64,000 nt of DNA from Chloroflexota bacterium (GTDB lineage: Bacteria; Bacteroidota; Ignavibacteria; Kapaibacteriales; UBA2268): assembly GCA_050260015.1 (NCBI GenBank), contig JBLNBN010000039.1, forward strand, positions 93,944 through 157,943, read 5' to 3'. Below, one piece after another: positions 6,749 through 64,000 of this stretch (position 1 is its first letter; each line of letters opens with the position of its first letter). The notes below the pieces were generated by a model. That model was not told where the DNA came from and did not search any database. It saw only the letters and a list, made by a program, of their open reading frames with translations. Position numbers and translations under genes: made by a program.

Positions 6749-6865
6749 GAGCGGCAACGCTGAAAGCGGTTTGGTTAAAGCGAAATTGATCCGGAAAATA
6801 TAAGGGGCGGGGCGAAGGAACGCGCCGCCTCTTATTAAATTCAAAATTCAAAAATTGAGGAAGCA

Positions 6866-7228
6866 ATGGCTTATTCAGCTCAACAAATTGCAGCCAATAG
6901 GGTTTACGGGGCAAAGACGCTCGACGGAAAACCAAAGATCCCGGCTTACATGGAGCAGGAAGTTCTCTCCTGGAGCAAGGAAAAGATAATTCTTAAGATG
7001 TACGATTTGTTTATCGTTAGCTGCAAGAAGCGCGATACGAACAAAATGAGCAGGGTGCTTATCGAGCTAATGGGCGCGCTCAATTTCGAATACGAAGAAA
7101 CGGCGACGAGACTTTACAGGCTTTATGAATACAGTCAAAGACTTGTATTTCAAAAAAAATACGACGAGGCATATAAGATTATAGCCGAGCTCCGCGCCGC
7201 ATGGGCGCAGGCTTTTAATTTAGAATAA
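6866..7228 (+). CDS. fliS: Flagellar export chaperone FliS
   Basis: 120 aa helical protein. C-terminal 'RLYRLYEYSQRLVFQ...AELRAAWAQAF' matches the FliS 'LYdYm..rL....l.eAW' pattern. Sits in the flagellar filament locus. Confidence 0.65.
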   Translation: MAYSAQQIAANRVYGAKTLDGKPKIPAYMEQEVLSWSKEKIILKMYDLFIVSCKKRDTNKMSRVLIELMGALNFEYEETATRLYRLYEYSQRLVFQKKYDEAYKIIAELRAAWAQAFNLE

Positions 7229-7255
7229 TTTCCTTTTTAGTTAACGGAGGACCGT

Positions 7256-41711: not shown

Positions 41712-41792
41712 GCGATTTGCCGCTCAATGTTCCCTTAACTTTTGTTATTTTTATATTTTAAAAAAGTTAACAAATATATTTTTGGTGTTTAA

Positions 41793-43741: not shown

Positions 43742-43956
43742 CTCAACGTTCCCCTCGCATTAAACAAAAACTACGCTATTCATAACGGATTAATTTATGA
43801 TATGTTTTTAATATCGGACAGGGTGACGTGGCTGAGTTTAGTCATTTCCGCGCAGGCGGAAATCCATATTGTCTGAACCATTGATTAATTTGATTAATAT
43901 GATTAATACATGATTGAATAGCCGAAAATAACGCATAAGCGCGTGCAATATAAGAG

Positions 43957-44483
43957 TCTGTCACTCCGAAGCGCAGCGAGGAGTCCAAAGAATTAAATTG
44001 AAGAAGTATCATTAGGGCTAATGCGTCTCCTTTGCGAATCGGGCTACTCTCAACGAATCCGAAGGATTCGAATGTCTATAGAAACGCGCGCTCACCTCCT
44101 CTCCTCGTGGGGCGGAGTCGGGGGCTCGTCCCACAAAGAAATGAACGCGGAGCGTTCTATTCGCATTCCCACGCTGAGCATGGGAACGATTGGGATATCG
44201 CGCCGTACACTGAGCCCCGTCGAAGGGTACGGCTAAGGAAACGCCGGGCGCTTCGACAGGCTCAGCGACCGGCTGCCGGTTACATTTTTCTTAACCCCGG
44301 AGGGATTACAGCTTTGTAACGCGAAGCGCGATTCCCTCCCTTCTCCCCTTGGCGGAGACGCGGGCACGAAAAAAAATCGCGCCGCAAACCCGCGCTGGAA
44401 GCCGCTTTCCCGTAATTTCAGCAAAAAACTAAAAAAACATTGTTTTTGAGTGTTACAAAATCGCATCTCGATTGTTTATATAG
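43957..44483. repeat. Composite dispersed intergenic repeat (modules 1-3) upstream of a T9SS cargo gene
   Basis: Module 1 'GTCACTCCGAAGCGCAGCGAGGAGTCCAAAG'. Module 2 'GCTAATGC...AACGAATCCGAAGGATTCGAATGTCTATAGAAAC'. Module 3 at 44351-44483 is near-identical to 57851-57984. Confidence 0.6.
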
Positions 44484-44518
44484 ATAAATATCTTGACAAT
44501 TTTCAAAAAGAGTAAAAG

Positions 44519-45898
44519 ATGAAAAGTTTCGCCGTCCTATTCTTTGCCGCAGTGTTGTTGCTACCGGGCTTCGGAAAAGCCGTGTGCGCCGATAAATACG
44601 TAAATCCCATAGGAGAGGACTGGATAACTATCGATTCCGCCGATAGGGAATTGGTTCCTGCGGAGGACTGGGTGAATTATTATAGATATCTTGTCTGCTC
44701 AGATTCTCTCAATTGCCTTGGTATGATTGATTTAGGTAATATGTCCCATTACCTCTTTCGAAGAACTACCGACGGGGGCTTAACCTGGGAAAATATTAGC
44801 GTCGATAGCAGCGATTGCATGATATACCCTCATATTATGGCTATGCCGGACAAAAATACTGCTTTATTGCTCGGCGATACCGGAGTCGTTCTAAGATCAA
44901 CTAACGGCGGATATTCATGGAACGCGGCAAAAATACCGGGATTTAATGCGGAAAAGTACTGGTTCAATCATTTATTTATGAAGGGCCCCATCGGAATTGC
45001 TCAATACGGAGCCTCGGATTGCTATATGACCGAGGACGGCGGCGCAAGCTGGAGCAAAATGGAAATTAATGTTGAGCCCGACTTGAAATATTCAATCTCC
45101 CATTTGTCAATACTCGATTACAACAATTTCATTATGTGGGGCATCCACCATGATTATGATAAAGATAGCATAGTGACCGGAGAATTTAGCTGCTATTATA
45201 CTACCTCGGACAGGGGAAAAACCTGGAACCTATTTAAGATGCTACCCTACGACGAGGATCGTTACCACAAATTTACGTTCTTCAACAGTAAAATGGGCTT
45301 TTCCTCTTACCAAACGACAAGAAAAAAAACCAGCGATCAAGAATACGATACAGTGACGACTTATATTTACAAAACACACGATGGAGGAAACGCCTGGAAT
45401 GAGATATTTAGGGATATAAATCCTTACTACGGCTATCAAACGGTCTTTTTCGATTCTTTGCATGCCATTGGCCGCGACAATTACGGGAAGTGTATAATAA
45501 CGAGCGACGGCGGTTACAACTGGAAAAAAACGGATTGGGTTAAATACGAAAACAATCAGTATGGATACTATTCTTTAGCTACGGCATACTTAACGCCGGA
45601 AACTCCATTAATCACTAATGGCGTAAAGGTTCTTAAATACGTAGGGAAGAATAAATCAATTCGCGACGCCGCTCCGCCAAGCGAAACTATCTTCATCAGC
45701 CCAAACCCCGCGTCCGAGTTTATATCAATAACGCCCTCGCCAACCGGCGTGAAGGCGCCTATTGAAATATATTCGAACCTGGGCTTGCTTGCTCTCTCTT
45801 CTCCGAACGAAGCGGGAAGGATAGACGTTGCCCGGTTGCCCGCGGGCGTTTATTTTATCAAGATAGGAACGCAGGTAGCGAAATTTGTGAAGATATAA
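44519..45898 (+). CDS. Secreted BNR/Asp-box repeat (Ycf48/sortilin-like beta-propeller) protein with C-terminal T9SS sorting domain
   Basis: Signal peptide. Six '[ST]xDGGxxW' repeats. C-terminal tail 'ISPNPASEFISI...GVYFIKIGTQVAKFVKI'. Confidence 0.75.
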   Translation: MKSFAVLFFAAVLLLPGFGKAVCADKYVNPIGEDWITIDSADRELVPAEDWVNYYRYLVCSDSLNCLGMIDLGNMSHYLFRRTTDGGLTWENISVDSSDCMIYPHIMAMPDKNTALLLGDTGVVLRSTNGGYSWNAAKIPGFNAEKYWFNHLFMKGPIGIAQYGASDCYMTEDGGASWSKMEINVEPDLKYSISHLSILDYNNFIMWGIHHDYDKDSIVTGEFSCYYTTSDRGKTWNLFKMLPYDEDRYHKFTFFNSKMGFSSYQTTRKKTSDQEYDTVTTYIYKTHDGGNAWNEIFRDINPYYGYQTVFFDSLHAIGRDNYGKCIITSDGGYNWKKTDWVKYENNQYGYYSLATAYLTPETPLITNGVKVLKYVGKNKSIRDAAPPSETIFISPNPASEFISITPSPTGVKAPIEIYSNLGLLALSSPNEAGRIDVARLPAGVYFIKIGTQVAKFVKI

Positions 45899-46270
45899 GA
45901 TTGTCATTGCTGCGAAGAATCCAAGGCGTATTATGCGTTTCGGGTTTGAAGACGGTAACGCCCTGCGCGGGGCGGGTAAGCGAATTGCCGTGAGCTTATG
46001 GATACTCGCCTGCGCGAGCATGGAAAGACTTTCCTGTAACAGCGCTTAGCTCGTAATTTACCAAAATACAATTCCGCCCATCCTTCCCCATCCCGTAAAG
46101 CCTTCTCCAAATAGCTGATCATTAACCATTAAACATTGATAATTGATAATTGATTTTCCGCCTTTCATCCGCCGAAACCCGCCATTCGCCTACATTCGCA
46201 GGGGTATGGAGCGAAACATCCGTAATTTCGCCCTCGTATTCAGCGCATAGAAGAAATTAAACTTAAATAA

Positions 46271-48571
46271 ATGGTGATTGAAGTGAAGAAGATTTTTTGG
46301 ACTCTGCTGCTAACGATGATACTTGCCGGGGGAAGCCAATCGCAGGCGGCTTCGGCCGCGCTCGCCGCAATGGGCGACGGCTCCTCGGCGGCTGGATTCG
46401 TTCGCGACTCCGCAACCGGCGAGACGCTCATTGGAGCTACCGTAAGCATACTCGGCGCAAAACGCGGCGCCTATACGAATAAACAGGGATATTACTCTAT
46501 AACTAACGTTATCCCCGGCGAATATACCGTTAGGGTTACAATGGTCGGATACAAGAACCGTGAAGCAAAATTGAAATTTGAAAAGGGAAATCCCATCCGT
46601 ATGGACTTCGGGCTTTCCTCCGGCGATCTTCGCACTGGCGACGTCGTCGTCTCCGCCGATCGCGATCCTGATACGCGACAAATATCAATTTCAACCGTCA
46701 ACGTGCCGATCGCCCAGATCAAGGAAATCCGTATTGGAGGCGAGAGCGACGTATTCCGCTCGCTGCAGATGCTGCCGGGCGTGCTGACTAGCTCGCAGAT
46801 GTCCAGCGGGCTCTACATACGCGGCGGTTCGCCCGACCAGAACTTAGTCCTCCTGGACGGCGCGACGGTGTATAATCCCTCGCATTTATTCGGCTTTATC
46901 TCGACCTTCAACAGCGAAGCCATCAAGGACGTCGAGCTGATTAAGGGCGGCTATCCCGCCGAATACGGCTCGCGGCTATCTTCAGTAATAAATATCACGC
47001 AAAAGGACGGCAACCGCGAAGAGTTCGGGGGCGTGGCTTCGCTCGGGCTTATATCCTCCAAGATCTCGCTCGAGGGGCCGCTCGGAAATGGCTCGTATTT
47101 TATCGGCGGACGCCGAACGTACTTCGATCTCATTCGCCCGGCGCTCGACAGCGACCCGGAAATGCCTATACCCGACTTTGGATTCTACGACCTGAACGGC
47201 AAGATAACCCAAAACTTCGGCCAGGACGATAAAGTCTTCCTAAGCGGCTTTTTGAGCAAGGACAACTTTAACTGGGGCAGCATGGGGCTGGACATGAACC
47301 TGTTTATGGGCAACCGGGCGGGCTCCGCAGGTTGGACGCATATCTTCGCCGAAGATCTGTTCTCGACGGTTCTCTTCAGCACGAGCTACTACGAGAGCGG
47401 CTTGAACGAAGAGATGAACGGCTTCTTTATCGGCGTTAAAAACTCGATAACCGATTACTCCATAAAGGGCGACCTCGAGTGGTTCCTTTCCGACAACGCT
47501 ACGATAAACTCTGGACTAGAGGTCTCCAATTTTATATTTAATTACGATCAAAACTTTACCGGTTCGAAGGGCGACGCGAAGGAAGGCACTAACGAGGGCG
47601 GCCGCATGAAGCTGCTCTACCATGATTGGGTTTACAGCGGCTACGTCCAGGCGAACTACCGCCCGACGGAGCTAATATCGCTGCAATTCGGCTTGCGCGG
47701 CTCCTGGTGGAATTACTCCGAGCATATGAACGTCGACCCGCGCGCGGCTATTCGCTGGCAGGCGCAGGATAACTTCGCCATTAAGGCCAGCTGGGGAATT
47801 TTCCACCAGTACCTCAGGTTGGCGGGCGACGAGAACTTCTCGCTCTTCGACACATGGCTGCCGACCGACAATACCGTAAAGCCCAGCCAGGCGCAGCACT
47901 TTATACTAAGCTCTGAAACAAAGATAGGCGAATTTGACTTTAACGCGGACGTATACTACAAGATATTGAATAACATATCGGAAGTAAAGACGACGAGCCT
48001 TAGCGGCGAAAGCGTAGGCGACGTATTCTACTCCGGGAAAGGCAAAGCATACGGCGCGGAAATATTCCTCCAGCGAAGGGTTGGAAGATTGGCCGGTTGG
48101 ATCGGATACGGCCTCGGTTGGGTCCGCGCGCAATTCGACTCCGTCAACGACGGCAGGGAATTCAATCCTAAGTACGATCGCCGCCATGACTTCAAGATAG
48201 TAATGCAGTATGAATTAACCGAGAACTGGCAATTTGGCGCGACCTTTATGTTCCAAACAGGCCAGAGCTATACGGGAGCCACTTCGCAGTTCGGCAGCCA
48301 GCTGCCCGGCGAAAACATGCCGACGTTAAAAGTTATCCAGGCGCAGCGTTATGGCTTGCGTTTGCCTCCCTCGCACCAATTGAACTTAAACGTAAATTAC
48401 TCGACAAAGCTCTTTGATCTGCCGTTTAAAATGATACTCGACGTATTCAATGTTTACAATCGTCGCGACATATTGATGCGCGTCTACGACGTAGACTACA
48501 GCAGGATCCACGTGGAGGACGTAAAGCTTCTGCCCGTGCTGCCGACTCTATCGTTCGAGGTTAAATTTTAA
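46271..48571 (+). CDS. TonB-dependent outer-membrane receptor with N-terminal carboxypeptidase-regulatory-like domain
   Basis: 'SATGETLIGATVSILGAKRGAYTNKQGYYSITNVIPGEYTV'. Plug 'DVFRSLQMLPGV'. C-terminal Phe. 766 aa. Confidence 0.8.
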   Translation: MVIEVKKIFWTLLLTMILAGGSQSQAASAALAAMGDGSSAAGFVRDSATGETLIGATVSILGAKRGAYTNKQGYYSITNVIPGEYTVRVTMVGYKNREAKLKFEKGNPIRMDFGLSSGDLRTGDVVVSADRDPDTRQISISTVNVPIAQIKEIRIGGESDVFRSLQMLPGVLTSSQMSSGLYIRGGSPDQNLVLLDGATVYNPSHLFGFISTFNSEAIKDVELIKGGYPAEYGSRLSSVINITQKDGNREEFGGVASLGLISSKISLEGPLGNGSYFIGGRRTYFDLIRPALDSDPEMPIPDFGFYDLNGKITQNFGQDDKVFLSGFLSKDNFNWGSMGLDMNLFMGNRAGSAGWTHIFAEDLFSTVLFSTSYYESGLNEEMNGFFIGVKNSITDYSIKGDLEWFLSDNATINSGLEVSNFIFNYDQNFTGSKGDAKEGTNEGGRMKLLYHDWVYSGYVQANYRPTELISLQFGLRGSWWNYSEHMNVDPRAAIRWQAQDNFAIKASWGIFHQYLRLAGDENFSLFDTWLPTDNTVKPSQAQHFILSSETKIGEFDFNADVYYKILNNISEVKTTSLSGESVGDVFYSGKGKAYGAEIFLQRRVGRLAGWIGYGLGWVRAQFDSVNDGREFNPKYDRRHDFKIVMQYELTENWQFGATFMFQTGQSYTGATSQFGSQLPGENMPTLKVIQAQRYGLRLPPSHQLNLNVNYSTKLFDLPFKMILDVFNVYNRRDILMRVYDVDYSRIHVEDVKLLPVLPTLSFEVKF

Positions 48572-48618
48572 TCGTTAGTGGATATAATACTATTAAATTG
48601 AAATAAACGAGGATAACA

Positions 48619-49497
48619 ATGAAAAATATAGCTTTTAAATTGACTTTAGCGATTGTCGCGTTAGTAGTAATTGGATCCCTGCAGGGCTGCGGCGACGATG
48701 CGCCGAACGATTATCAACCGAAGGTTTACGTCGAGGGCTACTTGATTGTCGATCAGCCTCTCGAGGGGATCAAGGTAACTTATACGCAATCTATACGCGA
48801 TTCGTTCGAGCTCGAGCGCGCAATGATCAAGGACGCCCAGGTAATATTGAAAATAAACGGCGAGCCGCATACGCTTGCTTATCAATCCGGGGAAAAGCCC
48901 GGTTTCGCTCTCGCGGGCGCCGTAGTACTGCCCGAAACGACCTATGAGCTGGAAATCCGCACGAAAGCCGGCGAAGTCGTAACCGGCAAAACGCTCACGC
49001 CCGAGAGAATTCAGTGGACGGTCGAGCCGAAGGCTAATATCCATTACCCGCAGGACACGATGAAGCTTGGGCCCGTGGATTCTCTCGAGATAGGCTGGAC
49101 GCGCGCAAAAGGCATTGATTTTTACCTAATAAGCGTTGAGTGCCTCGATACGTTGAATTATGGTAAATACCTGCCCGCCCCGACAAACGAGATGAACCGC
49201 CGCTGCTACAACTTCAATATTAACGGCGAGGAGGAAATGTACCGCTACAAAACGACATGGGGCTTCATCTCCAACTCGAAGAGCCCGACCGTTTGGACGG
49301 CCTTCAAGTGGTTCGGCCCCCAACGCGTAACGGTCTATGCCGCCGATTACAACATGTGCCAGTGGTTCGTTAATATGTACTTCACCGGGTCGACGGCCAC
49401 CCACGAAAAGACAAATTCCGTTACCGGCGGAGTGGGAGTTTTCGGCTCTGCCGCTTTAGCGACAAAAGACGTATTTTTATATAAAAACCAGCCTTAG
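48619..49497 (+). CDS. DUF4249-like lipoprotein, partner of the TonB-dependent receptor
   Basis: Lipobox 'GSLQGCGDD'. Placed immediately after the receptor, as is typical for Bacteroidetes DUF4249 proteins. Confidence 0.45.
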   Translation: MKNIAFKLTLAIVALVVIGSLQGCGDDAPNDYQPKVYVEGYLIVDQPLEGIKVTYTQSIRDSFELERAMIKDAQVILKINGEPHTLAYQSGEKPGFALAGAVVLPETTYELEIRTKAGEVVTGKTLTPERIQWTVEPKANIHYPQDTMKLGPVDSLEIGWTRAKGIDFYLISVECLDTLNYGKYLPAPTNEMNRRCYNFNINGEEEMYRYKTTWGFISNSKSPTVWTAFKWFGPQRVTVYAADYNMCQWFVNMYFTGSTATHEKTNSVTGGVGVFGSAALATKDVFLYKNQP

Positions 49498-49580: not shown

Positions 49581-51737
49581 ATGACAACCGAAGAGAGATG
49601 GAAATTTATATTTGAGAATATCCAGGACGTAATCTGGACGATGGACATTCGTACGAGAAAATTCACGTACGTAAGCCCCTCGGTCGAAAAGCTCGTCGGA
49701 TTTACTCCCGAGGAAATGCTCAATATAAGAATAGCCGATTTCGTTACGCCCGACTCCAGGAAAAAGATCGAGGGAATGCTGGAACGCATATTGGAAGGAT
49801 ATTATTCCGGAATTCGTGAAAATCTATATATCGGGGAGATCGAGGAGTACACTAAAAGCGGTTCTACGGTATGGCTCGAAGTCACTATCTCCCTGATCAC
49901 AGACGAAAAGGGCGAATTGACCGAACTCTTCGGCGTTTCGAGGAACATCACCGAACGGAAGAAACGCGCCAAGGAATTGGAGGAGAGCGAACGCCGTTAT
50001 CGCGAACTGGCCGACTTCCTACCGCAGATTATTTATGAATTGGACCTTGAAGGGAATGTGACGTTCGTAAATAAAAGCGGCCTGGCTATGTTCGGTATTA
50101 TGGATGATGAGGTCGCGGAAGGAAGGGTAAACGCTTATAACTTCTTTATACCGGAAGACGTCGAAAGAATGCGTCAAAATCGTGTCTCTATAATGGGCTC
50201 GAATACGGAAACCAGGCTGGAATTCACCGCTAAACGAATAAACGGCGAGACCTTTCCGGTTTCGATATACGGCGCGCCAAAAATTAATGAGAAAGGCGAG
50301 ACGATCGGCACGCGCGGGATCATAGTCGACATTAGCGATTTAAAATCTACGCAGCAAGCGCTCGCCCGAAGCGAGGAACGCTACAGGAAGATGATCGCGA
50401 GCCTGCAGGAGGGGCTTTACGTAATTCGCGACGGGAAATTCGCATTCCTCAACGACGCTATCGTCCAGATAGTAGGCTACCAGGTAGAAGAGCTCGTCGG
50501 GAAATCTTTCCTAGACGTTATCGCGCCTGAATCTCGCGAATTGGTCGCGGGGAATTACGCCAAGAGAATGCGAGGCGAGGATAGCCCTCACGAGTATGAA
50601 GCCATGTTGCTGCATAAGGACGGCGCTCGCGTGCCCGCAATTATTTCCGTAAGCGACGGCGAATACGACGGCGCAGCAGCCGTGATCGGCACGGCGCGCG
50701 ACATAAGCGAGCGTAAGCGCGCCGAGCAGGAGATAATCGATCGCGAACGGCGACTTAACGCAATTCTCGACGCGGCCCTCGTCGGGATAGCGCTTTTCGA
50801 GATCAATGGCGCTCTCGTCGACTGCAATACTAAGTGGCATGAACTATTTGGTTATTCGCGAGAGGAAATGGAAAGAATTACCTACAGGGAATTTACCTAT
50901 CCCGGCGACCTGGAGGAGACCCAGCTCTTTTTAGAAAGGTTGACAAACGGGGAAATCCGTTCCTATCGGCTTGAAAAGCGTTACCTTCGCCGCGACGGGA
51001 AAGTCTTTTGGGGCGAGCTTTCGGTTCGCTCGATAACTAACGGTAAAGGGCAGCCCATCGCGCTCGTCGCTTCGCTGTTCGATTTGACCGAGCGCAAGCA
51101 AATAGAAGAAGAGCTCCGAAAGGCCCAGGAAAAATTAAAGTTCGAGCTCGAAAAGGAAACGATCCGCTCGCAGTTCGAGACGCTGAAGAACCAGGTGAAC
51201 CCGCACTTTTTATTTAACAGTCTCAACGTGCTCACGTCGCTTATTAAGCTCGACCCCGACACCGCGGAAATGTTCACCGAGCAGCTCTCCAAGGTCTACC
51301 GCTACGTGCTGGAGAACAAGGATAAGGACCTTGTAACGCTAGCTACGGAACTCGAGTTTATGAAATCCTATAAATTCCTTTTGGAAATAAGGTTTAAGGA
51401 TAAGGTTACAACTGAGATAGACATAGACGAGAATAAACTCTCGATGCAAACGCCGACGCTTGCGCTTCAACTGCTAATCGAGAACGCGATAAAGCACAAC
51501 TCGTTCTCCAAGCGGCAGCCGTTGCATATTAAGATCTTCGTCGACGAGTTCAATTATCTCAACGTGACGAATAACCTGCAATTCCGCGAAGGAGCGAGCG
51601 TAAGCTCCACCGGCGTAGGACTGAAGAATATAGCCAACAGGTATAGATTTTTAACGAATAAAAAGCCGTTTTTCGGCCCGATAGATACAAAATTCGTCGC
51701 GAAGATACCCTTGCTGGATCGCGACGAGCAAATGTAA
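49581..51737 (+). CDS. Soluble multi-PAS sensor histidine kinase of the LytS/YehU type (His_kinase PF06580)
   Basis: Four PAS segments. LytS H-box 'QVNPHFLFNSLNVLTSLI'. HATPase 'GVGLKNIANRY'. No TM segments. Confidence 0.85.
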   Translation: MTTEERWKFIFENIQDVIWTMDIRTRKFTYVSPSVEKLVGFTPEEMLNIRIADFVTPDSRKKIEGMLERILEGYYSGIRENLYIGEIEEYTKSGSTVWLEVTISLITDEKGELTELFGVSRNITERKKRAKELEESERRYRELADFLPQIIYELDLEGNVTFVNKSGLAMFGIMDDEVAEGRVNAYNFFIPEDVERMRQNRVSIMGSNTETRLEFTAKRINGETFPVSIYGAPKINEKGETIGTRGIIVDISDLKSTQQALARSEERYRKMIASLQEGLYVIRDGKFAFLNDAIVQIVGYQVEELVGKSFLDVIAPESRELVAGNYAKRMRGEDSPHEYEAMLLHKDGARVPAIISVSDGEYDGAAAVIGTARDISERKRAEQEIIDRERRLNAILDAALVGIALFEINGALVDCNTKWHELFGYSREEMERITYREFTYPGDLEETQLFLERLTNGEIRSYRLEKRYLRRDGKVFWGELSVRSITNGKGQPIALVASLFDLTERKQIEEELRKAQEKLKFELEKETIRSQFETLKNQVNPHFLFNSLNVLTSLIKLDPDTAEMFTEQLSKVYRYVLENKDKDLVTLATELEFMKSYKFLLEIRFKDKVTTEIDIDENKLSMQTPTLALQLLIENAIKHNSFSKRQPLHIKIFVDEFNYLNVTNNLQFREGASVSSTGVGLKNIANRYRFLTNKKPFFGPIDTKFVAKIPLLDRDEQM

Positions 51738-51808
51738 AGACAAATGTCAAAAAATAATTAACAATTAACGATAAACAATTATTGATTCTCCGCATAATGG
51801 AGCGCGCC

Positions 51809-52582
51809 ATGAAAGTAGTAATAATTGAGGACGAAGAGCTCGCCGCCGGCAGGCTTGAGCGAATGATTAAGAAATATGATTCCGCGATGGAAATAGTCGC
51901 CAAGATGGAATCGGTCGAGGAGAGCGTCGAATGGTTTAAATCGAACCCATCTCCCGATTTGATCTTCCTGGATATTCATTTGGAGGACGGGCTGTCGTTC
52001 TCCATATTCGAGCAGACGGAGGTTCGCTCGCCGATAATATTTACTACGGCCTTCGACGAGTACGCTATTAAGGCGTTCAAGCTTAAGAGCATCGATTACC
52101 TGCTAAAGCCCATAGTGCAGGAGGAATTGAACAACGCTATAACGAAGTACCGCGACCTGACGGGAGGGCCGCAGAGCGTTACGCTCGACGTCAACTCAAT
52201 TTACGAAATACTTAATAATTCCCGGTCCAACTCGGCGCCTACCTATAAATCCCGTTTCGCCGTTCAAATTGGAACGAAGCTGAAAACCATTCCCACCGAG
52301 GACGTGGCCTACTTCTACTCCGAGGACGGCGCGACGTACCTCGTTTGCCTGGACAAGCATACATATATCATCGACGACAGCCTGGATAAGCTAGCCGCCG
52401 AATTGAATCCCGACGACTTCTTCCGCGTGAACCGCCAGCATCTCGTTTCGCTTACTGCGATCGCTAACGTGCACGTATTTCCCAAGAGCCGTTTAAAGCT
52501 CGACCTCACGCCGCCGCTTGCGAAGGAGTGCTACGTCAGTTTAGACAAAGTGACGAAGTTCAAAGCGTGGCTGGATAAGTAG
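51809..52582 (+). CDS. LytTR-family response regulator
   Basis: REC domain 'MKVVIIEDEELAA...LIFLDIHLEDG'. C-terminal LytTR DNA-binding domain. ATG at 51809 (listed ORF from TTG 51782). Confidence 0.85.
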   Translation: MKVVIIEDEELAAGRLERMIKKYDSAMEIVAKMESVEESVEWFKSNPSPDLIFLDIHLEDGLSFSIFEQTEVRSPIIFTTAFDEYAIKAFKLKSIDYLLKPIVQEELNNAITKYRDLTGGPQSVTLDVNSIYEILNNSRSNSAPTYKSRFAVQIGTKLKTIPTEDVAYFYSEDGATYLVCLDKHTYIIDDSLDKLAAELNPDDFFRVNRQHLVSLTAIANVHVFPKSRLKLDLTPPLAKECYVSLDKVTKFKAWLDK

Positions 52583-55924: not shown

Positions 55925-56335
55925 ATGCGACGCACAAGCGCGGCCCGGTCATTCCCGACCTGGTCGGGAATCTAAAGTATCTATAGATTCCGGGCGCTTC
56001 GACAAGCTCAGCGACCGGCTTCCGGGTCATTCCCGACTCGATCGGGAATCCAGTTGTCCGAACCTGGATTAAGCTGATTTTTATGATTTAACTGATTAGC
56101 GGGAAAAAATCATAAGAATAAACGCATTAAACGCATGAAATGGATGAGTTTGTCATTCCGATGAACGAAGTGAAGAGGAATCTAAAGGAATTGTGTGAAA
56201 AAATTCCGCTGGCGCTAATGCATTTAAATTTGTATCTCTCCGCCCTTAACGAATCCGCAGGATTCGTATGTCTATAGGAACCCTTGTCCATCTTTATTCT
56301 CCTCACGCGGCGAAGCCGCGGGAGCCCCTGCGAAA
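55925..56335. repeat. Cluster of hairpin repeat modules in the long intergenic region upstream of 56472
   Basis: Two 'GTCATTCCCGAC-N6-GTCGGGAATC' hairpins. 'CCGGGCGCTTCGACAAGCTCAGCGACCGGCTTCCGG' matches 44234-44269. Modules 1-2 at 56151-56335 match 43957-44120. Confidence 0.55.
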
Positions 56336-57686: not shown

Positions 57687-57756
57687 GGAGCTTTTGGATA
57701 AAGACTTCAGATGGTTTTTATCCTTCTTCTGCGCCATAGATTGAATTAAAAGATGT

Positions 57757-57789
57757 GGGCGGATGCTGAACTTATAGAAGCATCCGCCC
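57757..57789 (+). terminator. Strong hairpin downstream of the CARDB-like gene (10-bp stem, no U-tract)
   Basis: GGGCGGATGC (57757-57766) / GCATCCGCCC (57780-57789). Confidence 0.35.
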
Positions 57790-57850
57790 ATTGACTTTAA
57801 ATAACGCCCGGCGGCCGAACCTTCCGCTAAGCGCCCCCCCTCCTACCCTC

Positions 57851-57984
57851 GGCGAAGCCGCGGGCACGAAAAAAATTCGCGCAGCAAACCCGCGCTGGAG
57901 GCCGCTTTCCCGTAATTTCAGCAAAAAACCGATGGAATATTATTTTTTTGGTGTTACAAAACCGCATCTCGATTGTTTATATAG
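57851..57984 (+). repeat. Conserved ~130 bp element upstream of a T9SS cargo gene (second copy of module 3)
   Basis: GGCGAAGCCGCGGGCACGAAAAAAATTCGCGCAGCAAACCCGCGCTGGAGGCCGCTTTCCCGTAATTTCAGCAAAAAAC ... TGTTACAAAACCGCATCTCGATTGTTTATATAG, about 90% identical to 44351-44483. Confidence 0.65.
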
Positions 57985-58165
57985 GAGAGCGGTGATGCGA
58001 TTTCGGAAAAAGTTCCGGGAAATGACCGGCAGGAGCATTTGCCGAGCGTAAGCGCCGCGCTCCGGCGCGGACAGCGTAACGATGAAAAATTATTTTGTTT
58101 AAATTTCGCATTTTTTTTCGTTTAGATATTAATACCGGGTCAATTACTTTCCAAAAGGTCGCGTT

Positions 58166-59581
58166 ATGAAAAAACTATTCCTTCTTTCCTCGATCGTTTT
58201 TGTACTGCTGAGCGTTATCGCAACGGCGCAGGATATAAAGGTCCTTAACTTTTACGACGGCGATACATACTTCGACGGGCATGTTGCAAGTAAAATGGCT
58301 TATGACCATTATCGGAACAAAGTTTACTGTGTAACAGTAGATACAAAAAATGCTAATCAAAATCGATACTTTTTAAGGATGTTGGAAGACGGGGCTTGGC
58401 AACAAATCAACACTGTAGAGCAGGGGTATCCCTACGGGGATACGCTATTTATTAAGGGAATAGATATTGACAAGCATAGCCGGGTTTGGATAACAACTTC
58501 CGAGGGTTTTCTTAAGTATGAGAATGAGAAGTGGGAAAAAATCGAGACAGAAGATATTGAAGGATTGAAGGTCAAATCATACGTAGCGGTAATTCCTGAT
58601 TCATTAGGAAATGCGTTTTTATATATTAATTATGGCTATTTGTTTTATAGCGGCGGTCCCGTGACCCAGATAATGCGGATGAACTTATATAAATATATGC
58701 CGGAAGGCAACACGCTGATTTACAGTTGCGATTCGGCGAACTATGTTGATAATCCTGTAAGACTTGGTGGCATCTCCCCGCGGGCTTATTGCGCGGACGA
58801 CAAGGGAAATATTTGGCTTGCTAGCGATCAAAATACCAATGGAGAAGACGACTTTCCAAAAATAAAGGGGATGATGCGATATAGCGACACAGAAGGAAAA
58901 TTTGAATTTTTTGAAATGAAGAATTTAAGCAAAAATATGCAGCGTATCATGCCCCAACAGCTTATATATGATAAAGATCATTTATGGCTTGTCAACGGAT
59001 GGAGCTATGCCGGAGGAATCAGTAGAATGAGCCTGCAGACGCAGGAATGGGAACTTTTTGACAGTTTCGACGGAATGAAGGACTTGAGTTCAGCTTTTCA
59101 CAGATTGCAAACAATGGTTCAGGACGGCGATTCTATACTTTGGGGTGGAACATTCGGCTGGGGCTTACTTAAATTCGACCTGAAGGCTAAAAAAGTAGAA
59201 CGAATCAGCTTTGCTGATGTCCTGAATCGCGACGACTTAAGGTATAAATTAAACGAAGTATACAATAGCTTTAAGGATAAAGACGGCAACAACTGGTTCG
59301 TCACGCGGGCTGGAATTATTAAAACGGAAGGAAAGAAGACGACGTCCGCGGATAACGTTGAGGAGCCCAGGTTTGGCGTCTTTCCCAATCCCGCAAGCGA
59401 TCGCATATCAATTACCGGTCTTGATATAAATTTAAGCGGAAAGGTCGCAATCTATTCCCAATTAGGCGTAAAGGCGCTCGAAACATCAGCCGTCGAAGGA
59501 ATGATCGACGTTTCGTCGCTTCCCGCGGGCGTTTACCTATTGCGGGCGGGCGGCGGCGCGGCGAAATTCGTAAAGATATAA
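58166..59581 (+). CDS. Secreted beta-propeller (Reg_prop-like repeats) protein with C-terminal T9SS sorting domain
   Basis: Signal peptide. Repeats 'WITTSEGFLKYE', 'IWLASDQNTNG', 'ILWGGTFGWGLLKFD'. C-terminal 'FGVFPNPASDRISI...GVYLLRAGGGAAKFVKI'. Low GC. Confidence 0.7.
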   Translation: MKKLFLLSSIVFVLLSVIATAQDIKVLNFYDGDTYFDGHVASKMAYDHYRNKVYCVTVDTKNANQNRYFLRMLEDGAWQQINTVEQGYPYGDTLFIKGIDIDKHSRVWITTSEGFLKYENEKWEKIETEDIEGLKVKSYVAVIPDSLGNAFLYINYGYLFYSGGPVTQIMRMNLYKYMPEGNTLIYSCDSANYVDNPVRLGGISPRAYCADDKGNIWLASDQNTNGEDDFPKIKGMMRYSDTEGKFEFFEMKNLSKNMQRIMPQQLIYDKDHLWLVNGWSYAGGISRMSLQTQEWELFDSFDGMKDLSSAFHRLQTMVQDGDSILWGGTFGWGLLKFDLKAKKVERISFADVLNRDDLRYKLNEVYNSFKDKDGNNWFVTRAGIIKTEGKKTTSADNVEEPRFGVFPNPASDRISITGLDINLSGKVAIYSQLGVKALETSAVEGMIDVSSLPAGVYLLRAGGGAAKFVKI

Positions 59582-59597
59582 GAACGTCACGCGAAGC

Positions 59598-59627
59598 GAG
59601 GAATCCAAAGGATATTGTGGATTCCTC
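59598..59627 (+). repeat. Perfect 10-bp hairpin of the GAGGAATCC repeat family immediately after the T9SS gene
   Basis: GAGGAATCCA / TGGATTCCTC, preceded by 'GTCACGCGAAGCGAGGAATCCAAAG' (module 1 consensus). Confidence 0.45.
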
Positions 59628-59979
59628 TTTACTACGTTCATTGGAATAAAAGGTCGTTTCCATTACAGAGAATAACGCGCAAGCGCTTGGTAATAGGAAG
59701 CTTAGTTCTCCCTCTAAAAAGAGGGAGCTAGAGGGTGTGTAATATTTTTCTTTGATTCGTAGGAATTTTCGTTAATAGGACAGAACACATCCCCTAACCC
59801 CTCCTTGATAGAAGGGGAACCAAGTCTTCTATTTTTATAGGTTTAGCGCGTCACATTCGGAAAGTAAGCCTGAGACGCTCCTATTAATTGTTAATTGATA
59901 TTTGACCTTTGATTTACAGTCCCGCAGGGGCGAAACTATCAGTTCCGGTATGCTGTAACGCCGTCCCTCTGGAACTACG

Positions 59980-61354: not shown

Positions 61355-64000
61355 ATGAGCTTTATTATACGAATTTCTTCAGCTCTTACGCTAGCGATAT
61401 TGTGGTTCATGACGGGAGCTTTTGCGCAGGAGATTGATAGCCGCGGAACCGACTTTTGGTTGGCTTTTATGCCGAATTTCCATAATAATTTCGAGTTCGG
61501 GCCCGAAACGCTCGAGGATTCATTGTATATCTTCATTGCCGCGACCGAACCCGTAAGCGGGAAGATAGAATATTACGATCAGTTCGGTGCCCCTCACGTA
61601 CGTAATTTTAGAATATTGGATCCGCGGCAGGTCTATATCTTCAGCCTCCAATTCTACGACTACGAAGTCCGCGGGTACAATCGCAGCGGCGAAAGGACTA
61701 CGCAGCACGACGAAGGCAAGGTGAGCAAGCTGTCCTTCCACGTTACCAGCGATAAAGATATTTCAGTTTACGGTCACAGCCAGGCCAACACTACGAGCGA
61801 GGCGTTTCTCGTTATCCCCACGGACGCGCTCGGAAGGGAGTATTACGCGATGTCGTACTACAGCGACGGCACGTACTCCCCGGGGAGCGGCATGGGAGAC
61901 CATCGCACGCCGTCGCAAATTCTAATCGTCGGCACGGAGGACAATACAAGGGTCACAATATCGCCCTCGGTTAGGACTAATACTCATGGCTCGAAACCGC
62001 ACGATATCACGCTCAATCGTGGCGAAACGTACCTTGAGCAGGCCTACATCGACAATAATAACGAATCGCTGGACCTTACCGGGTCGTATATCAAATCCGA
62101 TAAGCCGGTCGCCCTTTTCGGCGGGCACCAACGATGCCGCGTGCCAATAAGCTGGGGCAATTCCCGCGACTGCCTAATCGAGCAGATGCCCCCCGTCTCC
62201 ACCTGGGGAACGAACGCCGCCCTCGTGCCGTTCGTCAAGCCAATAGACGACCCCTCCAGCGTCGAGGATCGGTATAGAGTGCTCGCAGCCAACGACGGTA
62301 CGGAAGTAACGCTCCCAAATAATGAAAAAATCGTTCTGAACGCGGGCAAGTTCGTCGAGAGAAATTTAAGCCTTACCCAAGGCTCCTACATAACTGCGAC
62401 TAAGCCCATTCTCGTAACTCAGTATAAACGCACGAGCGGCGGCGGAATGAGCAATTCCGTAAACGGCGATCCGCTAATGATGATCATTCCGCCCGTGGAG
62501 CAGTTCAACGATTTTTATAGAATAATAAATGTGCAGGCGTATGAATGGGGCAGCGAAGTTTATATGTATCAATATATTACGGTAGTCGGAACGAAAAGCA
62601 TAATGGGCAAGCTTGTCATCGACGGAGTAAAAGTAGCGGACGACGCATTTAACCCCATTACAAATAGTAGCGATTACGTTTATGCGCACACCCAGGTAGG
62701 CGACGGAGCGCACACCGTTACAGCCGACGGGGAACGCTTCGGTATATACGTTTACGGCTATGGCCGGGCCAATTCCTACGGCTATTATGGCGGTATGAAT
62801 CTTATTAAATTCGATCCGTACCCGCCGCAGCTGCAGGCAGATATCGATTGCTTCGAGGTCCGCGGCGTCATGTCCGACTCCAGCGAAGGGGATAAGGGGT
62901 TGGACACCGTCTTTTTCGATCCCTTAAAGTCTGAAAACGTCGATATCTCCATTAATTCCAAAACGGAAAAATCGGTTCGGTTTACCGCACGCTTAGTCGA
63001 TATATACCAGGACGGCGAATTTACCGTGGAAGCGAGGGACAAGAGCACCCGCGAAACAGTTAGCTCTATCGAGATTCCAGGCTTCACTTTCTCCACGACT
63101 GGAACAAAGGACTTTAAAACGCTCGACTTTATAGATACTCTTGCCGCAGGCGATAGAATTTGCGTTGATATTCCAATAACCAATTATGGAAAGCATAAAC
63201 AAACCCTGACGCGCCTCGGCATGAAAGCGGGCCTGCCCGGGAGTACGTTCGACGGCTTGCCGCTCGAGCTCGGTCCCGGGGAGACGGGAACTCTTCGCTA
63301 CTGCTTCGGCTCGAACGAAACCATGCATTACCTAGACACTATCCGGATCGGCACGGACTGCGCGATGAGAACTTTCGCGACGCTGGATTACCTGATAGCG
63401 AAGGATACCCTGCCGCCTCAATCGCTCGTAGTGGACGACCCATGCCTGAAGAACATCAAAGCCTATATTACTGAAAACTTTAAGTTTGACAAAGGTATAA
63501 AAAGCTATTCAATTAAGGCGGAAAATATGGAGTACCACGTCGACTCCGTTTCCGTAAAACTTATTACGTTTACCGTAGGGATTATAGACCCGATGCTGGA
63601 CGCGTCCCTGGAAATCACTTCGGTCGACAGCGTGGGAAATTCCGTCGTCAGGACGATTAGTTATCCCGGCTTTACGCTTTCGTTCTCGTCGCACTCAGGC
63701 GAAGCTCTTGATTTTGGCGATCGCAAAATCGGCGCGTATTCCTGCGACTCGATATATATCACCAACTATGGCAAGTACCTGATAACTTTACCGGATATTT
63801 ACGTTTACGGCAACGTCAGGTTCTCCGTGCCTCAATCGCAGATGCCTTTAAGGATCGCGCCCAACGAAACCCTCGCCCTGGGCGTCTGCTACCTCCCGCG
63901 GGAGGCCGATGGGGATCGTGACTTCGATTCGCTGCGGATCAGCATGAACTGCGTCGATAGGATCGTTCGATTGCTTGGCGAGCCGACCCCGATTCGTTAC
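61355..64000 (+). CDS. Large secreted protein with IgGFc-binding-like N-terminal domain (3' partial, reading frame open to window end)
   Basis: Not in the ORF track because no stop falls within the window. Manual translation from ATG 61355 gives >880 aa with no stops: signal peptide 'LTLAILWFMTGAFAQ', then 'GTDFWLAFMPN'. Confidence 0.6.
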   Translation, partial: MSFIIRISSALTLAILWFMTGAFAQEIDSRGTDFWLAFMPNFHNNFEFGPETLEDSLYIFIAATEPVSGKIEYYDQFGAPHVRNFRILDPRQVYIFSLQFYDYEVRGYNRSGERTTQHDEGKVSKLSFHVTSDKDISVYGHSQANTTSEAFLVIPTDALGREYYAMSYYSDGTYSPGSGMGDHRTPSQILIVGTEDNTRVTISPSVRTNTHGSKPHDITLNRGETYLEQAYIDNNNESLDLTGSYIKSDKPVALFGGHQRCRVPISWGNSRDCLIEQMPPVSTWGTNAALVPFVKPIDDPSSVEDRYRVLAANDGTEVTLPNNEKIVLNAGKFVERNLSLTQGSYITATKPILVTQYKRTSGGGMSNSVNGDPLMMIIPPVEQFNDFYRIINVQAYEWGSEVYMYQYITVVGTKSIMGKLVIDGVKVADDAFNPITNSSDYVYAHTQVGDGAHTVTADGERFGIYVYGYGRANSYGYYGGMNLIKFDPYPPQLQADIDCFEVRGVMSDSSEGDKGLDTVFFDPLKSENVDISINSKTEKSVRFTARLVDIYQDGEFTVEARDKSTRETVSSIEIPGFTFSTTGTKDFKTLDFIDTLAAGDRICVDIPITNYGKHKQTLTRLGMKAGLPGSTFDGLPLELGPGETGTLRYCFGSNETMHYLDTIRIGTDCAMRTFATLDYLIAKDTLPPQSLVVDDPCLKNIKAYITENFKFDKGIKSYSIKAENMEYHVDSVSVKLITFTVGIIDPMLDASLEITSVDSVGNSVVRTISYPGFTLSFSSHSGEALDFGDRKIGAYSCDSIYITNYGKYLITLPDIYVYGNVRFSVPQSQMPLRIAPNETLALGVCYLPREADGDRDFDSLRISMNCVDRIVRLLGEPTPIRY

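What the first reader, a model, noticed from the sequence alone, without database searches (positions are those of the whole stretch)
44351..44483. Near-identical ~130-bp element positioned upstream of both T9SS-tail genes (second copy 57851-57984)
44351-44429 and 57851-57929 differ at only a few positions: 'GGCGnAGnCGCGGGCACGAAAAAAAwTCGCGCmGCAAACCCGCGCTGGArGCCGCTTTCCCGTAATTTCAGCAAAAAAC'. After a variable ~20 nt both continue 'TGTTACAAAAyCGCATCTCGATTGTTTATATAG'. Copy A ends 35 nt before the start codon of the BNR-repeat T9SS protein. Copy B ends 181 nt before the beta-propeller T9SS protein. The only two T9SS C-terminal sorting domain genes in the window share it. I therefore take it as a candidate common promoter, leader or regulatory-RNA cassette for T9SS cargo. 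The TTG...TAnnTTTG-like spacing in 'GATTGTTTATATAG' is compatible with a Bacteroidetes-type sigma-A -7 element.
Basis: seen in the sequence. Interest (0 to 1): 0.6.

Follow-up and report, generated by a model that had tools for sequence, protein, structure and literature searches.

The report
Shared upstream repeat before two T9SS genes
Two secreted-protein (T9SS) genes of an uncultured Kapabacteria-like bacterium are each preceded by a copy of the same ~150-bp non-coding sequence, most likely a copied piece of promoter-region DNA rather than an RNA element, which is a fairly ordinary kind of feature whose function is unproven.

Summary
The repeat is real. Copies at 44334-44483 and 57834-57984 lie on the same strand and are 87-88% identical (blastn E 2e-32). 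They are the only copies in about 74 kb of this genome that I could read. Each sits upstream of one of the two genes carrying a T9SS type-A sorting domain.

Conservation comes in blocks. Module 1 has 5 differences in 79 nt and module 2 has 1 in 33. The 21/22-nt A/T spacer between them has 10 differences in 22 columns (Fisher p=8e-6). Homology stops abruptly after TATATAG.

There is no Rfam match and no excess folding stability on either strand. A strain allele breaks the only G+C-rich stem without compensation, so the regulatory-RNA reading is unsupported.

The organism uses Bacteroidota-type TAnnTTTG boxes, but the element has none.

A third probable T9SS-type gene (from 61355) lacks the element. 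Both host intergenic regions are mosaics of other dispersed repeats.

Best reading (about 0.4): a propagated promoter-region cassette acting as DNA. Main rival (about 0.3): a neutral low-copy dispersed repeat.

Separately, gene B carries a hypervariable strain allele. The left edge of its divergent tract lies at the element.

The parts
44334..44483 (+). Element copy A (whole); ends 35 nt before the ATG of gene A
   Evidence: the repeat finder D1/D5; blastn and nhmmer; alignment. Identical in five Logan samples.
44334..44350 (+). C-rich lead-in of copy A; fuzzy 5' edge; runs into the GGCGRAGNCGSGGG motif
   Evidence: 4 differences in 17 nt versus copy B. The same kind of motif ends the R1 repeats at 44100-44124 and 56291-56322.
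44351..44429 (+). Module 1 of copy A (G+C-rich blocks plus an A8 run)
   Evidence: 5 differences in 79 nt versus copy B. Longest exact run shared with B is 44401-44429, 29 nt.
44430..44450 (+). Variable A/T spacer of copy A (21 nt); holds the palindrome AAAAACA-T-TGTTTTT and the -7-like TGTTTTTG (44441-44448)
   Evidence: 10 of 22 alignment columns differ from copy B, against 6 of 112 in the modules; Fisher p=8e-6.
44451..44483 (+). Module 2 of copy A (TGTTACAAAATCGCATCTCGATTGTTTATATAG); homology ends here
   Evidence: 1 difference in 33 nt versus B and none between B and B'. No significant similarity downstream of it.
57834..57984 (+). Element copy B (whole); ends 181 nt before the ATG of gene B
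   Evidence: The strain allele B' (L096/L097) differs at 57845, 57862, 57876, 57909 and 57935.
57851..57929 (+). Module 1 of copy B
   Evidence: A terminator-like hairpin plus T-run on the minus strand (57895-57879) is called here but not in copy A.
57930..57951 (+). Variable A/T spacer of copy B (22 nt); TATTTTTTTG at 57941-57950
57952..57984 (+). Module 2 of copy B
44519..45898 (+). Gene A: signal peptide, BNR/Sortilin-type propeller and T9SS type-A sorting domain (459 aa)
   Evidence: Pfam PF15902, PF14870, PF02012, PF18962; TIGR04183.
58166..59581 (+). Gene B: signal peptide, Reg_prop/PorZ-like propeller and T9SS type-A sorting domain (471 aa)
   Evidence: Pfam PF18962, PF07494; TIGR04183 and weak NF052228. 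Similar to gene A only in the sorting domain, 43% aa.
44100..44124 (+). Partial relative of the element's 5' end, at the 3' end of repeat R1 (TCTCCTCGTGGGGCGGAGTCGGGGG)
56291..56322 (+). Partial relative of the element's 5' end, at the 3' end of the second R1 copy; CGGCGAAGCCGCGGG is identical to 57850-57864
   Evidence: blastn 15/15.

Best explanation
The element is a low-copy, lineage-specific piece of upstream (promoter-region) DNA. It has been copied from one T9SS-cargo locus to another whose gene has an unrelated propeller domain. In the sense of Matus-Garcia et al. 2012 it is a 'propagated' or putative mobile promoter region.

It acts as double-stranded DNA, not as a folded RNA. The inferred architecture is as follows:
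- Module 1 (about -170 to -90 relative to gene A's ATG) is an upstream regulator-binding or architectural region with A-tracts.
- The A/T spacer keeps its length but not its sequence. It ends in a T-rich, -7-like box.
- Module 2 is the start of the transcript or an operator overlapping the start site.
- The cassette therefore stops where gene-specific leader sequence begins.

What is shown: the repeat, its block structure, its position and orientation, and the absence of RNA signals. What is inferred: that transcription starts in or near it, and that it co-regulates the two genes.
For: - Both copies lie upstream of, and co-oriented with, the only two PF18962/TIGR04183 genes among 49 ORFs. The chance of this is about 0.002-0.006.
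- Divergence is strongly non-uniform: modules 6/112 against spacer 10/22, p=8e-6, with spacer length conserved to within 1 nt. This is the pattern expected of spaced DNA sites.
- Homology ends sharply 35 nt before gene A's ATG. There is no significant similarity in the remaining leader, the signal-peptide codons or the propellers. So the element moved independently of the genes rather than being part of a whole-gene duplication.
- In other genes of the window the -7 box starts at -47 to -16 from the ATG. Gene A has no such box in its 35-nt gap, so its promoter must lie in or upstream of the element.
- The spacer's 3' end resembles a real local promoter context: TATTTTTTTGGTGTT against TATATTTTTGGTGTT at 41775.
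- A-B module divergence (5%) is close to the B-B' allele divergence (3-4%). The copy event is therefore recent relative to the unrelated cargo domains.
- Such families are common in prokaryotes: more than 4000 families of 50-100 nt at >=80% identity (PMC3488235).
Against: - There is no exact TAnnTTTG and no sigma-70-type site on the + strand of the element.
- Copy B is 181 nt from its gene, and a closer -7-like box (TTATTTTG, 58090-58097) lies between them.
- Between alleles B and B' the element (5/151) is no better conserved than the adjacent leader (7/181). Module 1 tolerates G>A and C>A changes.
- A probable third T9SS-type gene lacks the element.
- Only two copies are known, so the association rests on n=2 and was noticed post hoc.
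- Both intergenic regions are mosaics of other repeats.
- There are no transcription data.
Confidence: 0.4

Rival explanations
1. Neutral or selfish dispersed intergenic repeat. The element is one more module of the repeat mosaic that fills this genome's long intergenic regions. It has no role in expression, and its position before two T9SS genes is coincidence or reflects the long, recombination-prone spacers next to fast-evolving surface-protein genes.
For: - The same two intergenic neighbourhoods hold other repeat families in shuffled order. R1 is 43930-44124 ~ 56121-56322 (67% over 203 nt). D6 is 44244-44279 ~ 55990-56025. D12 is 55944-55972 ~ 56022-56050.
- The element's 5' lead-in is itself a generic motif found four times.
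- B and B' show no extra conservation of the element over its flank.
- No promoter consensus is present.
Against: - The length-weighted chance of both copies landing co-oriented upstream of T9SS genes is 0.002-0.006.
- Block-wise conservation with a fixed-length variable spacer (p=8e-6) is unexpected for neutral decay.
- There are no terminal inverted repeats or target-site duplications (inspection).
- There are only two copies in about 74 kb. Logan k=31 contigs run straight through both copies, but break in the D6-type repeat. This argues against a young high-copy family.
Confidence: 0.3
2. Relic of an old duplication of a T9SS gene together with its upstream region. The ends (upstream element, sorting domain, 3' flank) are kept similar by gene conversion or selection, while the central cargo domain was swapped.
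For: - The two sorting domains are 43-45% identical in protein, with DNA stretches of 79-86% (D7, D11).
- Some similarity continues about 50 nt past the stop codons.
- Both proteins share one architecture and size: signal peptide, about 350-aa propeller, sorting domain.
Against: - Homology stops 35 nt before ATG A. The leader, signal-peptide codons and N-termini show nothing.
- Non-coding DNA at 88-95% against sorting-domain DNA well below that needs extra selection or recent conversion anyway.
- The 3'-flank similarity is largely the generic 'GAGGAATCCAAAG' junk repeat also present in R1.
- Only 2 of the 5 B' changes go toward the copy A state, so there is no clear conversion tract.
Confidence: 0.15
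3. Conserved 5' recombination 'handle'. The element, together with the conserved C-terminal third of the gene, provides homology for exchanging variable propeller cassettes of surface-exposed T9SS cargo between strains or paralogues.
For: - Allele P0005 of gene B sits in the same context in L096/L097. It is identical in the first 32 aa and the last ~145 aa, but only about 45% identical in between.
- DNA divergence jumps from 0.18% to about 4% at 57845, which is the element's 5' edge. The jump follows 1215 mismatch-free bases. Divergence peaks at about 50% in 58300-59100.
Against: - The breakpoint can only be placed within about 75 nt. That interval also contains a terminator hairpin (57756-57790).
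- Gene A shows no such allele.
- A and B carry unrelated propellers, so they cannot donate to each other.
- Decay of divergence away from a site under balancing selection explains the pattern without any special role for the element.
Confidence: 0.08
4. Structured RNA: a leader or riboregulator on the + strand, or a small RNA on the - strand ending at the hairpin plus T-run in module 1.
For: - A terminator-like site on the minus strand of copy B, GCGCGGGTTTGCTGCGC followed by GAATTTTTTT.
- A conserved local hairpin, CUGGARG...UUUCAG, with one A-U to G-U change.
- An A/U hairpin in the spacer with two 'compensatory' pairs.
Against: - No Rfam family at the gathering threshold or at E<=10.
- Folding energies are indistinguishable from shuffles on both strands, and the MFE folds differ between copies.
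- The minus-strand stem is weakened to 4 pairs in copy A and is not called there.
- The B' change G>A at 57862 breaks the CGCGGG/CCCGCG stem with no compensation.
- There are effectively two independent sequences, so the 'covariation' is not informative.
Confidence: 0.05

Closest known systems
Putative mobile promoters (PMPs; Matus-Garcia, Nijveen & van Passel 2012, Nucleic Acids Res 40:10032, PMC3488235)
   Same: Highly similar non-coding DNA (here 139-151 nt at 87-88%) sits upstream of genes whose 5' coding parts are not homologous. The family has two members in one genome. Conservation begins close to the start codon in copy A. There is no transposase and no IS ends.
   Different: Copy B lies at -332..-182, outside the -150..-50 window used to define PMPs. 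The two downstream genes do share a homologous C-terminal sorting domain. Promoter activity is as untested here as it was for most PMPs.
Dispersed intergenic repeats of bacteria (REP/BIME, MITE-like and the short 'junk' repeats of FCB-group genomes)
   Same: It lies in long intergenic regions that are mosaics of other short repeats (R1, D6, D12). Its 5' lead-in shares a generic GGCGRAGNCGSGGG hairpin motif with them.
   Different: It has no terminal inverted repeats, no target-site duplication, no strong palindrome and low copy number (2 in about 74 kb). Both copies have the same orientation relative to the downstream genes.
Bacteroidota primary-sigma promoters (-33 TTG / -7 TAnnTTTG) and the related Chlorobaculum tepidum RpoD motif (TTG-N17-23-TA[ATC][ATC][AT]T; bioRxiv 10.1101/172254)
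   Same: The organism shows TAnnTTTG boxes at -47..-16 of several genes. The element carries T-rich, G-terminated near-matches at the spacer's 3' end, followed by GTGTT as in the local promoter at 41775.
   Different: Neither copy has an exact -7 box. Position 2 is G or T instead of A. The -33 candidate is TTTC rather than TTG.
PorXY-SigP control of T9SS genes in Porphyromonas gingivalis (PMC4800418, PMC8265659)
   Same: It would be a dedicated regulatory input shared by T9SS-related genes. PorX footprints are A/T-rich. The sigP site tcgaaaaaaatgtttttctttgc resembles the copy A spacer, 15 of 17 positions, reached by 1 of 300 shuffles.
   Different: That system controls machinery (por) genes in a distant lineage. 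The resemblance is low-complexity A/T sequence, is present in only one copy, and does not survive correction for six comparisons. No PorX or SigP homologue was looked for or seen in the window.

Membership tests
Putative mobile promoter (PMP, PMC3488235) | Upstream regions align over >=50 nt at >=80% identity | tested here: met
   139 nt at 87.8% and 151 columns at 86.8%.
Putative mobile promoter (PMP, PMC3488235) | The aligned part lies within -150..-50 of the translation start of both genes | tested here: not met
   Copy A spans -185..-36 and so covers the window. Copy B spans -332..-182 and lies outside it.
Putative mobile promoter (PMP, PMC3488235) | The 5' parts of the downstream CDSs (+50..+150) and the upstream CDSs do not align | tested here: met
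   Proteins A and B align only in the C-terminal sorting domain. There is no DNA similarity after the element. No repeat joins the upstream ORFs.
Bacteroidota-type sigma-A promoter | -7 box TAnnTTTG, with TTG 17-23 nt upstream | tested here: not met
   There is no exact TAnnTTTG within 130 nt upstream of gene A or inside either copy. The best strings are TGTTTTTG and TTTTTTTG, with TTTC upstream.
Bacteroidota-type sigma-A promoter | A transcription start about 7 nt downstream of the box | not testable with these tools
Sigma-70-type promoter | TTGACA-N16-18-TATAAT with >=9 of 12 matches on the gene strand | tested here: not met
   The scans found none on the + strand in either region.
Known structured RNA (Rfam 15) | Covariance-model match at the gathering score | tested here: not met
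   0 matches in the whole window. At E<=10 there are only chance-level hits, none shared by both copies.
Novel structured RNA | Folding more stable than shuffles, with a shared structure supported by compensatory changes | tested here: not met
   z = +0.04, +0.37, -0.75, -0.52. The folds differ between copies. B' has an uncompensated G>A in the GC stem. RNAalifold covariation term is only -0.9 and -0.5 kcal/mol with 3 sequences.
MITE / REP-like mobile repeat | Terminal inverted repeats or a strong palindrome, and target-site duplication | tested here: not met
   No inverted repeat joins the two ends of the element. The flanks show no duplicated target on inspection.
MITE / REP-like mobile repeat | Many copies per genome | tested here: inconclusive
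   2 copies in about 74 kb of readable genome. The rest of the 267-kb contig and the MAG could not be read. There was no exact 22-mer hit in 185,579 species genomes and only a chance hit in JGI metagenomes.
Intrinsic terminator (minus strand, module 1) | G+C-rich stem of >=5 pairs followed by a T-run, in both copies | tested here: not met
   It is called in copy B (57895-57879) but not in copy A, where C>A/G>T at 44384 leaves 4 pairs. No minus-strand gene ends there.
T9SS type-A cargo (the downstream genes) | N-terminal signal peptide plus a C-terminal TIGR04183/PF18962 domain | tested here: met
   Gene A: PF18962 32.9 bits, TIGR04183 36.4 bits. Gene B: 34.8 and 31.1 bits. All are above the cut-offs. 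The N-termini are hydrophobic.

The most novel reading that the evidence does not exclude
The element could be a dedicated 'front end' for a subfamily of propeller-type T9SS cargo genes in a Kapabacteria-like lineage. In this reading it is a conserved upstream cassette that (i) puts otherwise unrelated surface proteins under one regulator and (ii) serves, with the conserved C-terminal third, as a homology arm. The variable propeller cassettes would be exchanged between strains or loci through these arms. The gene B allele, whose divergent tract starts at the element's edge, would be an example.
Probability: 0.1. Interest if true: 0.6.

Novelty: new member of a known kind. Interest (0 to 1): 0.3.

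Why it matters
Almost nothing is known about how T9SS cargo genes are regulated outside Porphyromonas and Flavobacterium. No promoter has been mapped in Kapabacteria-like bacteria. If the cassette does drive or co-regulate the two genes, it would give a concrete, testable cis-element for that problem. It would also be a clean example of promoter-region propagation between non-homologous genes.

If it is only a dispersed repeat, its value is practical. It marks recombination-prone spacers next to a surface-protein gene that is hypervariable between co-occurring strains. On present evidence (two copies, no expression data, no relatives) it is a modest finding.

Tried and rejected
- **Exact 22-mer scans.** Module 1 gave 0 hits in genome contigs. 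In metagenome contigs it gave one hit inside an unrelated CDS with unrelated flanks, which is chance. Module 2 gave 0 hits in viral contigs.
- **blastn 'distant' against plasmids and phages.** Only a 25-nt chance hit in Sinorhizobium.
- **Protein search with the spurious minus-strand ORF over the element**, to catch other copies: 0 hits. This result is uninformative, because even the known ORFs over copy A are not in that collection.
- **Profile search with the A/B sorting domains**, to find paralogues from the same organism: 3 weak, unrelated hits.
- **Search with the full-length A+B alignment**. It returned the strain allele P0005 and distant (<=38%) homologues. The CTD-only hits come from A+T-rich foreign organisms. 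The nearest homologue's locus, L100, has no element.
- **Synteny route.** IcmF relatives in 80 genomes are at best 67% identical (Kapabacteria/Chlorobiota). They share no neighbours and no element.
- **Genome walking with Logan contigs.** It added only 3.6 kb on the left and 6.7 kb on the right before all contigs stopped.
- **Whole-gene duplication.** Rejected because there is no similarity in the leader, signal peptide or propeller.
- **Coding potential.** The five module 1 differences fall in all three codon phases, and the spacer indel shifts the frame.
- **Sigma-54, ECF-type and invertible-promoter readings.** By inspection the -24/-12 and AAC/CGT spacings do not fit. Apart from the A-run/T-run pair, no flanking inverted repeats were found.
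- **PorX footprint resemblance.** Too weak and low-complexity.

Full report
**Observation**

I read both regions and aligned them. The repeat is real and slightly longer than reported. It spans 44334-44483 and 57834-57984, both on the + strand. Identity is 86.8% over 151 columns and 87.8% over 139 nt, E 1.8e-32. Two 22-mers from it occur exactly twice in the window even with three mismatches allowed, and never in 100 shuffles.

Its anatomy is as follows:
- A C-rich lead-in with 4 differences in 17 nt.
- Module 1 (44351-44429) with 5 differences in 79 nt.
- An A/T spacer of 21 versus 22 nt, with 9 substitutions and one indel.
- Module 2 (44451-44483) with 1 difference in 33 nt.

The heterogeneity between modules (6/112) and spacer (10/22) is significant (Fisher p=8e-6). 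Homology ends abruptly after TATATAG. A local alignment of what follows, up to and into the genes, is no better than shuffles.

**Downstream genes**

Gene A (44519-45898) is a BNR/Sortilin-type propeller with a T9SS type-A sorting domain. Gene B (58166-59581) is a Reg_prop-type propeller with weak PorZ similarity and the same kind of sorting domain. The two proteins are similar only in that domain, at 43%.

Of 49 complete ORFs in the window, only these two match PF18962. An overlapping Logan contig (L085, identical to the window over 7835 nt) adds a caveat. A 986-aa IgGFc_binding protein starts at 61355 and runs off the window. Its C-terminus looks like a T9SS/FlgD_ig-type domain but is below threshold:
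- FlgD_ig: 25.4 bits against a cut-off of 27.
- Por_Secre_tail: E 0.25.
- hhalign against the A/B sorting domains: 40% identity over 40 columns.

Its upstream region has no copy of the element.

**Organism and searches for further copies**

The window belongs to a GenBank MAG labelled 'Chloroflexota bacterium'. Gene A is MGE5480173.1, on a contig of 267,381 nt. The nearest IcmF relatives, however, are Kapabacteria/Chlorobiota MAGs at only 67% identity. The window also carries T9SS sorting domains and Bacteroidota-like -7 boxes. The label is therefore probably wrong, and no close genome is available.

Searches outside this genome found nothing usable:
- The module 1 22-mer gave no hit in 185,579 species genomes.
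- It gave one chance hit inside a CDS in JGI metagenomes.
- The module 2 22-mer gave no hit in IMG/VR.
- Plasmids and phages gave nothing meaningful.
- The 80 IcmF-anchored loci share neither neighbours nor the element.
- A peptide search with the spurious ORF over the element found nothing. It is uninformative, because such ORFs are not in the collection.

Walking along Logan contigs added 3.6 kb on the left and 6.7 kb on the right. In about 74 kb there are just two copies. Logan (k=31) contigs run through both copies. This fits their longest shared exact run of 29 nt. The same contigs break in a neighbouring generic repeat at 44247.

**RNA hypotheses**

There is no Rfam family at the gathering score, or shared by both copies at E<=10. 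Folding energies equal those of shuffles on both strands (z +0.04, +0.37, -0.75, -0.52), and the minimum-energy folds differ between copies.

A minus-strand terminator-like site is called in copy B only. A strain allele of copy B (B', below) carries an uncompensated G>A in the only G+C-rich stem. RNAalifold on A, B and B' finds only an A/U hairpin in the spacer. With effectively two independent sequences, this carries no weight. I reject the regulatory-RNA option (about 0.05).

**Promoter hypotheses**

The window's genes show TAnnTTTG boxes starting at -47 to -16 from their start codons. The motif is four-fold enriched at -60..-3 (6 in 2238 nt against 0.68 per kb elsewhere; p=0.005). The organism therefore probably uses the Bacteroidota type of promoter. 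This agrees with what is reported for Chlorobaculum.

The best candidates are TGTTTTTG (44441-44448) and TTTTTTTG (57943-57950) at the 3' end of the spacer. They are followed by GTGTT, as in the local promoter at 41775. If they are used, module 2 would be the first ~30 nt of the transcript. No sigma-70-type site lies on the + strand.

Gene A has no box in its 35-nt gap, so its promoter must lie in or upstream of the element. Gene B has a nearer box-like TTATTTTG at 58090-58097.

**Context**

Both intergenic neighbourhoods are mosaics of other repeats, arranged in different orders:
- R1: 43930-44124 ~ 56121-56322, 67% over 203 nt.
- D6: 44244-44279 ~ 55990-56025.
- D12: 55944-55972 ~ 56022-56050.

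R1 ends in the same GGCGRAGNCGSGGG motif that opens the element. Between the two copies lie a TonB-dependent receptor, a PAS/LytS-type kinase with a LytTR regulator, and IcmF. There is no integrase, so the direct repeats do not look like att sites.

**Strain comparison**

Copy A is identical in five samples. Gene B has a second allele, P0005, in L096 and L097, with the same neighbours. Its first 32 aa and last ~145 aa are identical, while the central ~290 aa are only about 45% identical. DNA divergence along the locus runs as follows:
- 0.18% up to 57844, with the last 1215 nt mismatch-free.
- About 4% across the element and leader (57845-58160).
- Zero in the signal-peptide codons.
- About 50% in 58300-59100.
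- About 0.3% afterwards.

The left edge of the divergent tract therefore falls within about 75 nt of the element's 5' edge. Allele B' differs from B at 57845, 57862, 57876, 57909 and 57935. Module 2 is unchanged, and two of the five changes restore the copy A state. The element (5/151) is no better conserved than the adjacent leader (7/181).

**Interpretation**

The abrupt 3' end and the lack of any similarity in the leader, signal peptide or propellers show that the element moved independently of the genes. Its module divergence (5%) is close to the allele divergence (3-4%), so the copy event is recent relative to the unrelated cargo domains.

Three observations favour a DNA-level cis-regulatory cassette of the 'propagated promoter' kind (PMC3488235):
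- Position and orientation before both recognised T9SS genes (p about 0.002-0.006).
- Block-wise conservation around a fixed-length variable spacer.
- Gene A's need for a promoter in this stretch.

I give this reading 0.4. Against it stand the missing consensus, the 181-nt gap at gene B, the third T9SS-like gene without a copy, the absence of extra constraint between alleles, and the repeat-rich context. Together these keep a neutral dispersed repeat at about 0.3. A duplication relic held by gene conversion gets about 0.15, a recombination handle about 0.08, and RNA about 0.05.

**Comparison with known systems**

The element meets the identity and length criterion, and the non-homologous-CDS criterion, of putative mobile promoters. 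It fails their positional criterion at copy B. It fails the defining features of Bacteroidota and sigma-70 promoters, of Rfam or structured RNAs, and of MITE/REP elements. Its resemblance to PorX footprints is low-complexity and weak.

I file it as a new member of a known kind. It is not a named family member, and its function is untested.

**Verdict**

The finding is modest (interest 0.3). The more surprising thing seen along the way is the hypervariable allele of gene B.

Noticed in passing
window 58240-59130 (gene B), compared with L096/L097 2075-2960: Gene B exists as two deeply divergent alleles in co-occurring, otherwise 99.7%-identical strains. The signal peptide and the last ~145 aa are identical, while the central propeller is only about 45% identical in protein and about 50% in DNA. 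This looks like long-term diversifying or balancing selection, or cassette replacement, in a surface-exposed T9SS cargo.
   Followed up: partly
window 61355-64000 (+), continuing to L085 8150: A 986-aa IgGFc_binding-domain protein starts in the window and runs off its end. Its C-terminus is a sub-threshold FlgD_ig/T9SS-like domain. The ORFs I first listed at 62044-62349 and 62785-63183 (-) are spurious ORFs inside it.
   Followed up: partly
window 43930-44124 and 56121-56322: A ~200-nt dispersed repeat (R1, 67% identity) contains the generic 'TGTCAYTCCGA...GAGGARTCYAAAG' junk motif and the conserved hairpin AACGAATCCGMAGGATTCG. It ends in the same GGCGRAGNCGSGGG motif that opens the element.
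   Followed up: partly
window 44244-44279 / 55990-56025, and 55944-55972 / 56022-56050: These are short generic repeats (D6, which reads FDRLSDR / SLSLSK in translation, and D12, which contains GTCATTCCCGAC...TCGGGAATC). Logan contigs from five samples all break at 44247 inside D6, which suggests many copies in the genome or community.
   Followed up: no
between window 52585 and 52586; L099 8338-10420: One strain (SRR24085902) has a ~2.1-kb insertion between the LytTR regulator gene and icmF. It carries a 429-aa HATPase_c_4 protein that is absent from the window.
   Followed up: no
window 49581-52582: A PAS(x4)/LytS-type histidine kinase and a LytTR response regulator lie between the two copies, next to a TonB-dependent receptor plus DUF4249 pair (46271-49497). 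The regulator is a candidate for binding the element but was not tested.
   Followed up: no
whole window: The source MAG is labelled 'Chloroflexota bacterium' in GenBank (MGE5480127-187, locus tags ACM3U1_). However, the IcmF relatives (Kapabacteria/Chlorobiota, 67%), the T9SS sorting domains and the TAnnTTTG boxes point to a Kapabacteria-like member of the FCB group. The label or the binning is probably wrong.
   Followed up: partly
window 45815-45950 and 59498-59640: The two sorting domains share DNA stretches of 79-86% identity. Similarity continues about 50 nt past the stop codons, partly because both 3' flanks contain the GAGGAATCCAAAG junk motif.
   Followed up: partly
window 44450-44515 and 57951-57995: Module 2 opens a short GTG-initiated ORF, MLQNRISIVYI..., of 21 codons in copy A and 14 in copy B. 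The ORF in copy A ends 3 nt before the ATG of gene A. The single A/B difference in module 2 is synonymous in this frame (AAT/AAC). This is probably chance.
   Followed up: no
L107-L113 (236 nt beyond the metallophosphoesterase gene, 3.6 kb left of the window) and L101/L114 (inside hslU, about 6.7 kb right of the window): All Logan contigs from many samples stop at the same two points. This indicates repeated or cross-species-conserved sequence there.
   Followed up: no
window 5795-8695: Flagellin, FliS and FliD genes are present, so the organism is probably flagellated as well as having a T9SS.
   Followed up: no
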